From the human T2T-CHM13v2.0 reference genome, Homo sapiens, in assembly GCF_009914755.1 (NCBI RefSeq), contig NC_060945.1: a stretch of 64,000 nucleotides of DNA. One strand, given 5' to 3'. The notes under the pieces are model-generated. The model did not search any database, had not been told where the DNA came from, and saw only the letters and a program-made list of their open reading frames with translations. Shown here one piece after another: positions 47,296 to 62,056 of this stretch (the first letter of the stretch is position 1; each line of letters starts with the position of its first letter). Both the position numbers and the translations under genes were made by a program.

Positions 47296-48201
47296 AGTAA
47301 GCGGAATATTCAATTGGATTCCAGAGTTTATGCTTTTAGCTATCAAGCTATACTCTTTCTCACTATATTTCCCTGAGCTTTGGTTTCCTTATCTATAAAA
47401 CTGGAACCGCACTGCCTGTTTGCCTTTAGAGCTATAGGTAATAAATGTTATGCATTTATTATGGTAAATAACATGTAGTAGAGCAAAGCATGGAAATTCA
47501 GGAAGTAACAAAGAGCAGTCATAAGAATGTCTATGTGGTAAATCTAGATAAAAATTACTTGTATACACATTTACAGTAGCGCCTTTAAAACACACACCGA
47601 TAGCACTTTAGTAAGTCAAGAATGCATGTTGCACCAATTAGAGAAAACACCAATTTTTTAAAAAAACATATAAATAACAAGCTAATAGAAGAAGAAATGT
47701 AATTAGAAAAATTTAAATAAGCCCAAAAACTTTAAGGAAGGACAAAAAAAATCATAGAACAGAGAAAATAGGAATCAATGGTAAGATGGTAGATTTAACC
47801 TTGAATTACAGTAAATATAAACAGACTAAATATTGAAATTGAAATATAAAGCTCATCAGAGAAGGTAATAATATCAAGCAAAGCTAAACAAGCTGCTTAC
47901 TTTAAATATAAAGATATCGACAGGTTGAAAGTAAGTAAGGGATGGTAAAACTACTATGCAAAGCAAAAGTTACAAAACCAAAGCAAAGACTGGCTCGTTT
48001 CAGAATAATCAACGTTTCAGGTTTAATATGAAATAATCGTAAATTTGTTTATACCTAATAACATAGCCATAAAATAAAAATTGACAGATAAACAATCATG
48101 TTAAGAGCCTGTATAAGCCAGATTTCTCCAGAAAAACAGAATCAAAAGGATATATACATTAAGAATTATATTAAGAAATTTATTTTAGCATATTGGCTTA
48201 C

Positions 48202-48303
48202 ATGATTGTGGGGCTGGCAAGTCCAGAATCCGTAGGAGAAGCTGGCAGGCTGAAACTCAGGCAGGAAACGATGTTGCAGACTTTAGGCAGAATTTTTTCT
48301 TCT
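48202..48303 (-). CDS. DSCR4: DSCR4 exon 2 (102 nt), exonised from an MLT2 LTR
   Basis: Acceptor TTTTCCTAG| and donor CAT|GTAAGC. In frame with exon 1 it gives R-EEKILPKVCNIVSCLSFSLPASPTDSGLASPTI, matching recalled DSCR4. The remaining C-terminal exon was not found and is presumably left of the window. Confidence 0.92.
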
Positions 48304-48473
48304 CTAGGAAAATTCAGTTTTTGCTCTTAAGGCTTCTGATTGTATAAGGCCCATTCACAGTATGAAAAGTAAGATTTATGTAAAGCCAACTGATTGTAGA
48401 TGTTAACTACATCTACAAAATACCTTTGCAGCACTACCTAGATTAGTGTTTGATTAAATAAATGGGCAGTAAA

Positions 48474-48754
48474 GGCCGGGTGCAGTGGCTCACGCCTGTA
48501 ATCCCAGCACTTTGGGAGGCCGAGGCAGGAAGATCACTTGAGGTCAGGAGTTCAAGACCAGCCTGGCCAACATGGTGAAACCCCATCCGTACTAAAAATA
48601 CAAAAATTAGCCTGGCTTGGTGGCGGGCACCTGTAATCCCAGCTACTTGGGAGGCTGAAGCAGGAGAATCACTTGAACCCAGGAGGTTGTAGTGAACCGA
48701 GATCGCGCCACTGCATTCCAGTCTGGGTGACAAGAGCAAAACTCTGTCTCACCA

Positions 48755-48788
<34 letters not shown>
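48474..48788 (+). mobile_element. AluS in DSCR4 intron 1
   Basis: Full Alu, long A tail, TSD-like GGCA(G/C)TAAA. Confidence 0.93.
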
Positions 48789-48792
<4 letters not shown>

Positions 48793-49026
48793 CTAAAGCC
48801 TGGCCCCCATGATGACACAGGAAACTAATCGTCATGGAGACTTTATCCACACTTTTGAATATATGTTACATTTCAACATTAAAACACACACACACACACA
48901 AAATCATAAAGCAATCAACAAAATTAAGCTGAATGCTTCGTAATTGCTGGATTCCCTGGGAAGCTGACTCTGAGATGGAGATTAGCGTGCAGGACATTTC
49001 TTACGGGTTGTTCTTGGGATCAATAC

Positions 49027-49154
49027 CTGTGGAGAGGAGAAGCTGAGGCAGGATCAGGAAGCGGGGAAGTAGAGTGCAATGCTGGTGAAGCGGCATCACT
49101 GTCTGGGGTAAATATCCGGGGTTCATCATCTCTCGTCAAGATGATTAACGACAT
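49027..49154 (-). CDS. DSCR4: DSCR4 exon 1, coding part (42 codons + 2 nt); protein-coding status of this young gene is debated
   Basis: The minus-strand ATG at 49154 reads MSLIILTRDDEPRIFTPDSDAASPALHSTSPLPDPASASPLH, matching the DSCR4 N-terminus as I recall it. It ends at donor CAG|GTATTG (49027/49026). Phase 2 joins exon 2 in frame. Confidence 0.92.
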
Positions 49155-49249
49155 GGACACACATGGGTGAGTTAAGAAGCGGAAAGTTTAATAGGCGGAA
49201 GAAAAGAGTGAGGAGACCAGCTCTCAGACATCCTTAAGGGAAAGGCTGG

Positions 49250-49400
49250 CCCGTGACTGACGGCAGCAGGTTTTACGGGCAGGCTTGAGGAGGCGGTGTC
49301 TGATTTACGTGGAGCCCAGAGATTGGTTCGACCAGGGGTGACGTTTACGTAGCGCGCAGGGAAGGCTGGTCACCCCACCCTAATCTTGTTATGCAAATAG
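49250..49400. promoter_or_regulatory. Bidirectional LTR promoter of DSCR4 (-) and DSCR8 (+)
   Basis: Lies between divergent exons and is CpG-rich relative to the window. Motifs: CCAAT (GATTGG, 49321), TGACGT (about 49339), TACGTG (about 49306), TTGTTATGCAAAT Sox-Oct-like (49386-49398). Bidirectional activity is established knowledge for this locus. Confidence 0.8.
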
Positions 49401-49500
49401 GCTTCCCACTTGGCAGGGGCCGTCTTGTCCACTCGTTTCTGTAAACATGGGTGGCAAAAAGAGAAGATGGAGCTGCCATTTAGAACATGCCTAATCCCAG
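49350..49500 (+). ncRNA. DSCR8: Candidate DSCR8 non-coding first exon inside the LTR (start approximate)
   Basis: The acceptor at 50210 needs an upstream exon, and DSCR8 is known to initiate in this LTR. Candidate donor CAG|GTAGTG at 49500/49501. The TSS cannot be determined from sequence. Confidence 0.5.
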
Positions 49501-49505
49501 GTAGT

Positions 49506-49690
49506 GTTTTTTGTTGTTGTTGTTGCTGCTGTTGTCGCTTTTTGAGTCGGAGTTTCGCTCTTGTTGCCCAGGCTGGAGTGCAATGGCGCCATCTTGGCTC
49601 ACCACAGCCTCCGCCTCCTAAGTTCAGGCGATTCTCCTGCCTCAGCCTCCTGAGTAGCTGGGATTACAGGCGTGAGCCACAGCGCCGGCC
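49506..49690 (-). mobile_element. Monomer-length Alu (left-arm start fused to right arm) inserted in the LTR
   Basis: Alu 5' end GGCCGGCGCTGTGGCTCACGCCTGTAATCCCAGC runs directly into right-arm sequence, followed by a degenerate (AAC)n tail. TSD CCAGGTAGT at 49497-49505 and 49691-49699. Confidence 0.88.
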
Positions 49691-50230
49691 CCAGGTAGTA
49701 TATTTTTATTGGCACAACTGCCGGTATTTGCCTGTGCAAGCTTTCAGCTTGCTTGTCTGTGTCTGCAGCTCGATTTTCCAGGTTGCTTTTTGTTAGAAAA
49801 GAAAATGATTTGGGGGCTGCTTTTCATTAAAAGGAAGACCTTACTGAGGACTCCCATACCTTCACTATCTGCCTAAGTACTTTCTTCTTAACTCCTATAT
49901 CACTGGGTCAGCAGCAACCCCAGTCAAACCTCAAGGGAGACGGGAAGATGGGACGATCTGTCAGAGGTATGCTGAGTTGAGGCAAGAGAGCTGACCTTTA
50001 TGGATTGCCAATCAGTGACTCATTGGAAGTGGGGCAACCTGGAAGGAAATGTGGCCTTAGGTGAGGCAGCTGTCTTCAGAGGAGGCAATTTCTTTGTATC
50101 TGGAGGGGCAATTGTTAGTGTTCCCCTGGACTGAAGGGTGAATTATGGAGAATGGAATAGAACGATTTGTTACTATGATTTGGTTGATGACTTATTTCCT
50201 GTTTCCTTAGCTTCATCTTGCTGAGCAAAA

Positions 50231-50310
50231 ATGAAGGAGCCTGGACCCAACTTTGTTACTGTGAGAAAGGGTCTTCATTCATTCAAGATGGCATTTGTTA
50301 AGCACCTACT
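50231..50310 (+). CDS. DSCR8: DSCR8 (MMA-1/CT25) first coding segment; the exon spans 50211-50310; often annotated as lncRNA
   Basis: Acceptor TTTCCTGTTTCCTTAG| at 50210, ATG at 50231, donor ACT|GTGAGT at 50311. The translation MKEPGPNFVTVRKGLHSFKMAFVKHL matches the recalled DSCR8 N-terminus. Confidence 0.88.
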
Positions 50311-50774
50311 GTGAGTAGATGATCTCCTGTCAAAGACAGTTAACAAATCCTCGGAATATTGCTTCATGTACAGTTATTGGAGATGAGTAACTTACATTCT
50401 CTTAATTGTAATGGTTCCTTGGAAAGTCATCGTGGAAAATGAAGGCTGGCTCATACATTTTCCCAGACAGGAATTTGGCTGCCAACAGGGAATTCTAAAC
50501 AACTAAAAACTCCAGATGATGAATGCACAACATAATGATGGTTAAATTAAAAAAAAAAAAGAGCACGGTAATAAAATTTCCATGAAATATTTTGTGTAAG
50601 CGCAGATAATCAGTCATTTTCTTTGTAGAATTCTTATTCGTAAATAATTTAGAATACTTTGTTCTTTATAATATATGATGGGCAACTATAGTATGATTCT
50701 TCTGAGTGACTCAGTTCTTTTTTTTTTTTTTCACATTTAATGACTTTGTTTCTCCTAAGTGAATGCACAGATAG

Positions 50775-51243
50775 TATATTAATCAGGGTTCTCTGGAAAA
50801 ACCAGAACCAATTTATTATCAGGTACTGGTTCATGTGATTGTGGAGGCTGAGAAGCCCCATGATCTGCTCTCTGCAAGCTGGAGACCCAGGAAAGCTGAT
50901 GAAAGTCAAAGGCCTAAGAGCTGGAGGGCCGATGGTATAGATTGCAGCCCAGGTCTAAAGGCCTGAGAACCAGAAGCACAGAGGGCAGAAGATCAATATT
51001 CCAGCTCAATCAGGCAAAGAGAAAAAGTCCTCCCTTCCTCTCCATTTTTCTTCTATTCTGACCCTGGATGGACTGGATGAGGCCCAGCCACATTGAGGAG
51101 AGCCATCTGCTTTAATCAGTCCACCAACTCAGATCCTGATCTCTTCCAGAAACACCTTCACAGATACACCCAGAAATAACATTCAACCTGTTAGGAGTAT
51201 CCCATGGCTCAGTCAAGTTGACACACAAAACTAACCATCACAG
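50775..51243 (-). mobile_element. MLT2 LTR
   Basis: AGGGTTCTCTGGAAAAACCAGAACC...CAGTCAAGTTGACACACAAAACTAACCATCACA. Confidence 0.88.
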
Positions 51244-61559: not shown

Positions 61560-62056
61560 TGAAATAAGACAAGGTTCTCCAGAGAAACAGAATATATATA
61601 TATATATATGTATGTATTACCACACACGCATATATATATGTATGTATACATATATGTATATATACACGTTTTAAATTTTATTAAAAATTTTAAATATATT
61701 TATTTTAAGAAATTGTCTTGTGTGATTGTAGGGGCCGGCAAGTTCAAAATCTGTAAGTCAGGTCAGCAGGCTGAAAACTTAGGCAGAAGTTAATGCTACT
61801 GTCTTGAGGCAGAATTTGTTTTTTTTGTTTGTTTGTTTTGTTTTTTTTTTCAGGAAACCTCAGTTTTTGCTCTGAAGGCCTTCAGCTGACTGAATGAGGG
61901 CCATGCACATGATCCAGTTATCAAGGAGAATCTCTTTACTTAAAGTCAGCTGAGTAAATTGTCTAAAAAATACCTCCACAGCACCTAGATGAGTTTGATG
62001 ACATAACTGTGTATTATATAGCCTAGCCAAGTTAATACATAAAACTCATCATCACA
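61560..62056 (-). mobile_element. MLT2 LTR with an internal (TA/TG) microsatellite
   Basis: GGTTCTCCAGAGAAACAGAA...CCAAGTTAATACATAAAACTCATCATCACA. Confidence 0.85.

What the first reader, a model, noticed from the sequence alone, without database searches (positions are those of the whole stretch)
48202..50310. Two divergent young genes (DSCR4/DSCR8) assembled from a stack of TEs around one solo LTR
Seen in sequence: a solo ERV1 LTR with a perfect 4-bp TSD sits inside an older LTR16-like element. The DSCR4 ATG and first ~23 codons are LTR U5 sequence. The ORF then crosses the insertion junction (49086/49085) into the LTR16-like host, which provides the donor. Exon 2 is entirely MLT2. On the other strand, the 3' half and donor of the DSCR8 exon (CATTCATTCAAGATGGCATTTGTTAAGCACCTACTGTG) resemble an antisense L2 tail. 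Established: this LTR is the shared bidirectional promoter, active in placenta, testis and tumours. Inference: the exon 1 ORF cannot predate the LTR insertion, so about 2 kb records a stepwise de novo gene birth from at least four TE families. None of this appears in the ORF track.
Basis: partly seen in the sequence, partly recalled or inferred. Interest (0 to 1): 0.8.

Follow-up and report, generated by a model that had tools for sequence, protein, structure and literature searches.

The report
Known LTR9 promoter of DSCR4/DSCR8

Summary
Window 49086-49902 is a solo LTR with TG...CA ends and a perfect 4-bp duplication, CTGG. All 20 genomic copies I fetched share its boundaries, and 13 of 20 have perfect 4-bp duplications. 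Print names it LTR9, class ERV1. Provirus-like copies show its sense strand is the window's minus strand, so the DSCR4 ATG (49154) and exactly 23 codons lie in its U5 end. It is nested in an older repeat (print: LTR16A) that supplies the DSCR4 exon-1 donor. DSCR4 exon 2 lies wholly in another old LTR (print: MLT2C1). Divergence dates the LTR9 family to about 30-50 My; print gives 29-45 Ma. The "L2 tail" rests on a roughly 40-bp motif only. The bidirectional LTR promoter (Dunn 2006) and the stepwise origin from repeats (Saber 2016) are published. Verdict: already known, low interest.

The parts
48110..48468 (.). Old LTR-type repeat (print: MLT2C1, ERVL class). It contains all of DSCR4 exon 2. 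Its orientation was not determined.
   Evidence: 843 candidates, 40 scored, 70-79% identity; 16 of 16 fetched copies align, starting at 48084-48178 and ending at 48432-48471. The name comes from Saber 2016.
48202..48303 (-). DSCR4 exon 2 (102 nt), wholly inside the MLT2-type repeat.
   Evidence: RefSeq table. Splice dinucleotides read. 16 of 16 copies span it. The acceptor dinucleotide is shared by 4 of 16 copies and the donor by 6 of 16.
48473..48789 (+). Full-length Alu with an A-tail in DSCR4 intron 1, just outside the end of the MLT2-type repeat. It is not exonic.
   Evidence: Sequence read. It has 14 other matches in the window. The name Alu is recalled.
48940..49085 (.). Left piece of the older host repeat (print: LTR16A, ERVL class). 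It supplies the last 59 nt of DSCR4 exon 1 and its donor.
   Evidence: all 20 fetched copies match within 48943-49082. The family end maps to 48936-48948. The donor dinucleotide is shared by 9 of 17 aligned copies. The name is from print.
49027..49259 (-). DSCR4 exon 1. Its start site and ATG (49154) lie in the LTR9. The ORF crosses the insertion junction at 49086/49085 into the host repeat.
   Evidence: RefSeq table. ORF reconstruction.
49082..49085 (.). Left copy of the 4-bp target-site duplication, CTGG.
49086..49902 (-). Solo LTR (print: LTR9, ERV1 class, HUERS-P3B group). It is 817 bp, or 623 bp without the nested Alu and one copy of its duplication. The sense strand is the minus strand, with the U3 start at 49902 and the U5 end at 49086. 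There are no viral genes here.
   Evidence: at least 1218 and 1386 candidates. (boundaries, duplications, copy lengths of 612-656). (orientation from provirus-like copies). (no second copy in the 64-kb window). Names.
49260..49349 (.). 90-bp stretch between the two annotated start sites; the core of the bidirectional promoter, and CpG-dense.
   Evidence: RefSeq table. CpG observed/expected is 0.92 across 49230-49370. Promoter activity is known from print only.
49350..49500 (+). DSCR8 exon 1, entirely LTR9 sequence read antisense.
   Evidence: RefSeq table. Boundaries. The donor GT is shared by 19 of 20 LTR9-type copies.
49506..49689 (-). Nested 5'-truncated Alu (right arm plus a degenerate tail) inside the LTR. 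Its 10-bp duplication is at 49496-49505 and 49690-49699, and the left copy contains the DSCR8 exon-1 donor.
   Evidence: junction letters. (all 20 copies lack it). (about 80% identity to positions 158-279 of the Alu at 48473-48789, on the opposite strand).
49903..49906 (.). Right copy of the 4-bp target-site duplication, CTGG.
49903..50155 (.). Right piece of the host (LTR16A-type) repeat. Similarity is detectable only over 49974-50090. The family end maps to about 50070-50155, so it stops short of the DSCR8 exon-2 acceptor.
   Evidence: no hit from the genome tool. (4 of 20 copies collinear)..
50211..50310 (+). DSCR8 exon 2, short form (the long form runs to 50567). The ATG of the longest ORF is at 50231.
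   Evidence: RefSeq table; 97 aa in NR_026840.
50274..50313 (-). Short motif of L2/MIR-tail type: a TTCA-type repeat followed by a high-copy 16-mer. It covers the last 37 nt of the short exon 2 and the donor GT.
   Evidence: 9809 against 720.. Assigning it to L2 is recall, not a tool result.

Best explanation
An ERV1-class retrovirus of the LTR9 family integrated, in minus orientation, into an older ERVL-class LTR (LTR16A type) roughly 30-50 million years ago. It made a 4-bp duplication and later collapsed to a solo LTR.

The LTR's own promoter drives sense transcription. This is DSCR4, whose start site, ATG and first 23 codons lie in the R/U5 end. Transcription then reads out into the host LTR, whose sequence supplies a GT donor. 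It splices to an exon inside a third old LTR (MLT2C1 type) and to a distant third exon.

The same CpG-dense core, 90 bp wide between the two start sites, also fires antisense through U3. This is DSCR8 exon 1, and it uses a GT that nearly all family members carry. It splices to an exon whose last roughly 40 nt carry an L2/MIR-tail-type motif.

What is shown and what is not:
- Shown here: the anatomy, the nesting order, the orientation and the family age.
- Taken from print: promoter activity in placenta and testis, and the primate distribution.
- Unresolved: whether either short ORF (118 aa and 97 aa) is translated. I lean towards mostly non-coding transcripts or weakly translated young ORFs.
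For: - LTR boundaries and 4-bp duplication: (20 of 20 copies share the boundaries; 13 of 20 have perfect 4-bp duplications).
- Solo status: the duplication flanks a single LTR, and there is no second copy in the 64 kb.
- Orientation: in a chr7 pair of LTRs 7.4 kb apart (86.4% identical over 589 bp), the end equivalent to 49086 is followed 3 nt later by a TGG-initiated stretch that looks like a primer-binding site. The start of the other LTR is preceded by a purine run. A chr3 copy has about 50 bp of homologous sequence and a purine run upstream of the same end. A minus-strand ATTAAA at 49192-49187 is kept in 15 of 20 copies.
- Nesting: the left and right host pieces are collinear in 4 of 20 copies, with spacing 125 vs 128, 137 vs 141, 184 vs 184 and 95 vs 118 bp.
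- ORF anatomy.
- Age: the chr7 LTR pair has K2P 0.137, about 31 My at 2.2e-9 per site per year (rate recalled). Copy-to-copy K2P is 0.145-0.223 at all sites and 0.127-0.196 at non-CpG sites. The window's LTR is no outlier, at 0.151-0.241.
- Print: LTR9, LTR16A, MLT2C1, LTR79 and 29-45 Ma (Saber 2016; passages and section 21). LTR9/ERV1 as a bidirectional promoter (review passages citing Dunn 2006). Placenta-specific and methylation-controlled activity (Ward 2013 passages). E1-E2 junction reads of 17 in placenta and 33 in testis. Promoter and DSCR8 dated to about 43.2 Ma (preprint figure legend).
Against: - The family names LTR9, LTR16A and MLT2C1 come from print. No repeat library was on hand to test them.
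- The right-hand host piece is detectable in only 4 of 20 copies, and the genome tool found nothing for it.
- Orientation rests on one provirus-like pair plus one 3'-LTR context.
- The 20 copies used for dating were the best hits to the window, so the distances are biased low. A solo LTR cannot be dated on its own.
- Ward 2013 labels the repeat at the promoter LTR16A rather than LTR9.
- The ATG at 49154 is present in only 7 of 20 family copies, so I cannot say whether it came with the insertion or arose later.
- RefSeq lists both genes as lncRNA.
- I did not see Dunn 2006 itself; it is not held.
Confidence: 0.9

Rival explanations
1. DSCR4 (and DSCR8) are true de novo protein-coding genes. On this view the 118-aa and 97-aa ORFs are translated and under selection, so the locus records the birth of proteins and not only of transcripts.
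For: Intact ORFs in the spliced RefSeq exons. Saber 2016 reports the ORF reconstructible in all great apes examined and a stop-creating change 15-19 Ma. The preprint calls the 118-aa protein 'experimentally verified' and reports a polymorphism pattern read as purifying selection.
Against: RefSeq RS_2025_08 lists both genes as lncRNA. DSCR4 has 2 upstream ATGs and DSCR8 has 4 before the ORF. No Pfam family matches the three exon-encoded pieces (0 of 3). I saw no peptide-level data in the passages I read.
Confidence: 0.3
2. The end of DSCR8 exon 2 is not L2-derived. The roughly 40-nt motif would then be a MIR-type tail or a chance resemblance, leaving only three TE families that contribute exon sequence within the 2 kb.
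For: There is no genome-wide or in-window DNA match for 50180-50560. Similarity to 20 places that hold the exact 16-mer extends only over 50285-50323. Most of those 20 places lack the upstream TTCA-type repeat; only 2-4 of 20 have one.
Against: The 16-mer is 13.6-fold enriched over its reversed control (9809 against 720) and has at least 100 exact copies. The window also has a TTCA-type repeat at the spacing seen in that subset of copies. From recall, this is the L2 3'-end signature.
Confidence: 0.35
3. The LTR did not insert into a single older element. The left and right flanks would then be unrelated sequences, and only the left one is a repeat.
For: The genome tool found no relative for 49903-50210. 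16 of 20 copies show no right-hand match.
Against: 4 of 20 copies match both flanks, on the same strand, in order, and with the spacing expected for an uninterrupted element. Print calls it LTR16A.
Confidence: 0.05

Closest known systems
The DSCR4/DSCR8 bidirectional ERV1 (LTR9) promoter described by Dunn et al. 2006 (Gene 366:335). I did not see the paper; I know it through review passages.
   Same: It is this very locus. One solo LTR is the only known promoter of both genes, active in both directions and mainly in placenta. Part of DSCR4 exon 1 and all of DSCR8 exon 1 are LTR sequence.
   Different: Nothing of substance differs. This report adds exact T2T coordinates, the 4-bp duplication, orientation from provirus-like copies, the nested Alu whose duplication holds the DSCR8 donor, and the CpG retention. 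I cannot tell whether Dunn 2006 already reports these.
The multi-step origin of DSCR4 from repeats, in Saber et al. 2016 (PMC4987104).
   Same: LTR9, LTR16A and MLT2C1 supply the promoter, exon 1 and exon 2. LTR79 supplies exon 3. The gene arose de novo and stepwise.
   Different: Saber dates MLT2C1, LTR16A and LTR9 together at 29-45 Ma. Here LTR9 is nested in the LTR16A-type element, so it is younger than that element. Both ERVL-type elements are more diverged from their best relatives (K2P 0.27-0.28) than LTR9 is (0.15-0.24). I could not see Saber's supplementary tables, which may list the repeats in the DSCR8 exons.
Other LTR-initiated host transcripts named in the reviews I read, for example THE1B-CSF1R and a bidirectional HERV9 LTR at CADM2.
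   Same: A solo LTR supplies the promoter, the first exon and a splice donor to a host transcript.
   Different: Here both directions give spliced, named transcripts. The sense ORF starts inside the LTR itself.

Membership tests
Solo LTR of an ERV1-class endogenous retrovirus (LTR9) | TG...CA termini | tested here: met
   TG is kept in 18 of 18 aligned copies and CA in 16 of 17.
Solo LTR of an ERV1-class endogenous retrovirus (LTR9) | Target-site duplication of 4 bp directly flanking a single LTR. That 4 bp is the class I length is recalled. | tested here: met
   CTGG on both sides. 13 of 20 other copies have perfect 4-bp duplications. There is no second copy in the window.
Solo LTR of an ERV1-class endogenous retrovirus (LTR9) | Belongs to a multi-copy family with the same ends, some members of which flank internal proviral sequence with primer-binding-site and polypurine contexts. 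| tested here: met
   The chr7 pair and the chr3 3'-LTR context.
Solo LTR of an ERV1-class endogenous retrovirus (LTR9) | Match to the LTR9 library consensus (Repbase/Dfam) | not testable with these tools
   No repeat library is on hand. The name is from print: Saber 2016, a 2024 review, and Kojima 2018, whose table lists LTR9 with HUERS-P3B.
Solo LTR of an ERV1-class endogenous retrovirus (LTR9) | Class assignment from a core gene (pol) of full-length relatives | not tested
   I left this out. The LTR and print suffice, and no internal proviral genes were fetched.
Bidirectional promoter | Two divergent start sites within a short shared region | tested here: met
   The annotated start sites are 49259 (-) and 49350 (+), 90 bp apart, both inside the LTR.
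Bidirectional promoter | Measured promoter activity in both directions | not testable with these tools
   From print only (review passages on Dunn 2006; Ward 2013).
ERVL-class host LTR (LTR16A) | One old repeat continuous across the insertion | tested here: met
   (4 of 20 copies collinear on both sides). The name is from print.
ERVL-class LTR MLT2C1 (DSCR4 exon 2) | The exon lies wholly within a multi-copy old repeat | tested here: met
   (16 of 16). The name is from print.
L2 LINE 3' end (antisense) in DSCR8 exon 2 | Extended similarity to L2 3' ends, beyond a short motif | tested here: inconclusive
   The 16-mer is enriched 13.6-fold. However, similarity spans only 50285-50323 and there are no DNA-level hits. 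L2 and MIR cannot be told apart here.
De novo protein-coding gene | Intact ORF in the spliced transcript | tested here: met
   118 aa for DSCR4 and 97 aa for DSCR8 NR_026840.
De novo protein-coding gene | Evidence of translation, and absence of the ORF in outgroups | not testable with these tools
   No primate genomes, Ribo-seq or proteomics are on hand. Print claims the ORF is great-ape specific. RefSeq lists the gene as lncRNA.

The most novel reading that the evidence does not exclude
This LTR9 copy may have been a germline-unmethylated, active promoter for most of its roughly 30-50 My residence. Two observations support this. It keeps 18 CpGs in 49086-49505, against a mean of 7.2 and a maximum of 14 in 20 sister copies. 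It also keeps CpG-bearing factor-site-like motifs that most sisters have lost (2 of 20 and 5 of 20).

Separately, the LTR9 family may be predisposed to antisense exon formation, because 19 of 20 copies carry the GT used as the DSCR8 donor. The later Alu insertion duplicated that donor, leaving a second, untested donor-like site 194 bp downstream.
Probability: 0.3. Interest if true: 0.35.

Novelty: already known. Interest (0 to 1): 0.2.

Why it matters
This is a textbook-grade example of a retroviral remnant supplying a promoter, first exons, a start codon and splice sites to lineage-specific human transcripts, in a region studied for Down syndrome. Its value here is as a check: a reader working from raw sequence alone recovered published anatomy almost base-perfectly. 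The small additions are the nesting order, the Alu-duplicated donor and the CpG retention. They refine the published timeline but do not change the picture.

Tried and rejected
- Whole-genome DNA search with the right host flank (49903-50210) and with DSCR8 exon 2 (50180-50560) returned only the query itself. The flank was rescued by local BLAST against fetched copies. The exon was not.
- DSCR4 exon 3 (print: LTR79) gave only 3 weak hits, all outside the coding part, so I could not confirm that name.
- A candidate chr3 LTR pair turned out not to be one provirus: the two LTRs are 76.6% identical, and nothing like a primer-binding site follows the first. Only its second LTR was informative.
- Pfam on three exon-encoded pieces gave 0 families. 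Rfam over 47800-50800 gave 0 matches.
- Dunn 2006 is not held. Supplementary files of Saber 2016 (Table S3, Figs S2, S5) were not available; they may list the repeats in the DSCR8 exons and the per-species presence.
- I ran no protein search with the 118-aa DSCR4 or 97-aa DSCR8 ORFs. These are joined-exon translations printed by a script and may not be typed. The single exon pieces (42 aa or less) are too short for the length filter to reach full-length entries. So search for homologous proteins, the Atlas and structure prediction were not used.
- I did not subtype the Alus, and I did not identify the tRNA matching the stretch that looks like a primer-binding site. Its likeness to a tRNA-Pro type is recall only.
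- I rejected the idea that the window's LTR is an unusually diverged subfamily member. Its distance to the copies equals the copy-to-copy distance.
Full report
**What is there**

Window 49086-49902 is a long terminal repeat. The + strand reads CTGG|TG...CA|CTGG, a perfect 4-bp target-site duplication at 49082-49085 and 49903-49906.

Searching the human reference with its two halves gave at least 1218 and 1386 first-look candidates, of which 40 were scored each time. I fetched 20 copies and aligned them locally. All 20 align to the window starting at 49079-49087 (9 exactly at 49086) and ending at 49898-49911 (11 exactly at 49902). 13 of the 20 have a perfect 4-bp duplication of their own, and their lengths are 612-656 bp. 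The window holds no second copy. This is therefore a real solo LTR with no viral genes.

All 20 copies lack 49506-49689. That stretch is about 80% identical, on the opposite strand, to the right arm of the full Alu at 48473-48789. It is flanked by a perfect 10-bp duplication at 49496-49505 and 49690-49699. Without the Alu and one copy of its duplication, the LTR is 623 bp.

The DSCR8 exon-1 donor (49500|49501) lies inside the left copy of that duplication. An identical donor-like sequence therefore sits 194 bp downstream.

**Family and class**

No repeat library was on hand, so the names come from print.
- Saber et al. 2016 (passages and section 21 read) name LTR9, LTR16A, MLT2C1 and LTR79 at this locus.
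- A 2024 review (passages) calls the shared promoter LTR9 of the ERV1 family, citing Dunn et al. 2006.
- Kojima 2018 (table passages) lists LTR9 with the internal sequence HUERS-P3B. It places LTR16A and the MLT2 LTRs with ERV3/ERVL.
- Ward 2013 (passages) labels the repeat at the promoter LTR16A. That is the host element, not the insert.

The 4-bp duplication seen across the family fits class I. That 4 bp is the class I length is recalled.

**Orientation**

A pattern search listed two same-strand copies 7.4 kb apart on chr7. I fetched only the LTRs with short stubs.
- The two LTRs are 86.4% identical over 589 bp.
- The end equivalent to window 49086 is followed, 3 nt on, by a TGG-initiated stretch that looks like a primer-binding site.
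- The start of the other LTR is preceded by a purine run.
- The outer flanks match at 3 of 4 bases.

A chr3 copy has about 50 bp of homologous upstream sequence ending in a purine run at the same LTR end. Its apparent partner proved unrelated, at 76.6% identity.

The LTR's sense strand is therefore the window's minus strand. U3 starts at 49902 and U5 ends at 49086. DSCR4 is the sense transcript and DSCR8 the antisense one. A minus-strand ATTAAA at 49192-49187 is kept in 15 of 20 copies, about 100 nt before the LTR end.

**DSCR4**

Joining the RefSeq exons as they stand gives a 118-aa ORF. It starts at mRNA position 106, which is window 49154, after two upstream ATGs. The stretch 49154-49086 is exactly 23 codons of LTR. 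The ORF then crosses into the host repeat, which supplies 59 nt and the donor. All splice dinucleotides are canonical (read; the exon-3 acceptor).

How often the family copies carry the same letters at the key sites:

| Site | Copies with the same letters |
|---|---|
| ATG at 49154 (LTR9-type copies) | 7 of 20 |
| Exon-1 donor dinucleotide (host-type copies) | 9 of 17 |
| Exon-2 acceptor (MLT2-type copies) | 4 of 16 |
| Exon-2 donor (MLT2-type copies) | 6 of 16 |

Print reports junction reads for E1-E2 (17 in placenta, 33 in testis) and E2-E3 (10 and 2).

**Host element**

The left flank 48943-49082 matched 39 other places (84 candidates, 40 scored). The genome tool found nothing for the right flank.

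In 20 fetched copies, all match the left piece. Four also match 49974-50090 on the same strand and in order. Their spacing is 125, 137, 184 and 95 bp, against 128, 141, 184 and 118 bp expected if the LTR9 were absent.

Mapping the family's ends through those four copies puts them at about 48936-48948 and 50070-50155. The LTR9 therefore sits inside one older element, which ends at least 55 bp before the DSCR8 exon-2 acceptor.

**DSCR4 exon 2**

A repeat with 843 candidates covers about 48110-48468. 16 of 16 fetched copies span 48202-48303. A full Alu lies just outside its end.

**DSCR8**

Exon 1 (49350-49500) is wholly LTR9, read antisense. Its donor GT is present in 19 of 20 family copies.

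The longest ORF is 97 aa in NR_026840. It starts at 50231 in exon 2, after four ATGs in exon 1. The other isoforms give 91, 47, 43 and 37 aa.

Neither the genome search nor a sensitive in-window search found relatives of the exon. The evidence for a repeat origin is limited:
- The 16-mer 50298-50313 occurs 9809 times at up to 2 mismatches, against 720 for its reversed control, with at least 100 exact copies.
- In 20 fetched exact-match places, similarity to the window spans only 50285-50323.
- 2-4 of those 20 carry a TTCA-type repeat upstream, as the window does at 50274-50285.

From recall, that combination is the signature of an antisense L2 3' end, and the related MIR tail lacks the TTCA repeat. 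This is a lead, not a test.

**Age**

| Comparison | K2P, all sites | K2P, non-CpG sites |
|---|---|---|
| chr7 LTR pair | 0.137 (about 31 My) | - |
| 20 copies, copy to copy (means for the two LTR pieces) | 0.145 and 0.223 | 0.127 and 0.196 |
| Window LTR to copies | 0.151 and 0.241 | - |

The rate used is 2.2e-9 per site per year, and it is recalled. The window LTR's distance to the copies is the same as the copy-to-copy distance, so it is an ordinary family member. Halving these distances at that rate gives roughly 30-50 My. The copies were the best hits, so this leans low.

Print gives 29-45 Ma and about 43.2 Ma in the simian ancestor (preprint figure legend).

The two ERVL-type elements are K2P 0.27-0.28 from their best relatives, and the LTR9 is nested in one of them. 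They look older than LTR9, unlike the joint 29-45 Ma date in Saber 2016.

**CpG retention**

The window copy keeps 18 CpGs in 49086-49505, against a mean of 7.2 and a maximum of 14 in the 20 copies. CpG observed/expected is 0.92 over 49230-49370.

CpG-bearing motifs are kept in few sister copies: GAGGCGG in 2 of 20 and TGACGT in 5 of 20. The CpG-free ATTGG is kept in 15 of 20. This fits a promoter long unmethylated in the germline. That reading is an inference.

**Coding status**

RefSeq lists both genes as lncRNA. Pfam found nothing in three exon-encoded pieces, and Rfam found nothing in 47800-50800. The preprint and Saber 2016 argue for a protein. I could not test translation or the primate distribution.

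**Novelty**

The bidirectional LTR promoter (Dunn 2006) and the stepwise origin from repeats are published. One literature search on the locus returned 10 papers.

The finding is accurate but already known. The small additions here are the nesting order, the Alu-duplicated donor, the orientation evidence and the CpG retention. I cannot say these are new, because I did not see Dunn 2006 or the supplements.

Noticed in passing
window 49496-49699: The 10-bp duplication made by the nested Alu contains the DSCR8 exon-1 splice donor. An identical donor-like site therefore lies at 49694|49695, 194 bp downstream of the one RefSeq uses.
   Followed up: partly
window 49086-49505: This LTR9 copy keeps 18 CpGs, against a mean of 7.2 and a maximum of 14 in 20 sister copies. 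CpG-bearing motifs in the core are lost in most sisters.
   Followed up: partly
window 48110-48468 and 48940-50155: The two ERVL-type elements look older than the LTR9. The LTR9 is nested in one of them, and both show K2P 0.27-0.28 against 0.15-0.24 for LTR9. Saber 2016 dates all three to 29-45 Ma.
   Followed up: partly
window 48473-48789: A full-length Alu with a long A-tail sits about 4 bp outside the end of the MLT2-type repeat in DSCR4 intron 1, with a roughly 10-bp near-perfect duplication read by eye.
   Followed up: no
L043 (chr7) and L083 (chr3), the last ~50 bp before each LTR start: Two LTR9-type copies share homologous upstream sequence ending in a purine run. This is the context expected of 3' LTRs of related proviruses. 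It was not translated or explored further.
   Followed up: partly
L041 (chr21:36437353-36438515; DSCR4 exon 3): The exon-3 coding part has no detectable repeat relatives in the own-genome search. The 3 weak hits fall just outside it. Print assigns it to LTR79.
   Followed up: no
window 61564-61909: A second fragment of the MLT2-type repeat lies about 13 kb to the right in DSCR8 intron 2, with 73-78% identity to 48110-48468.
   Followed up: no
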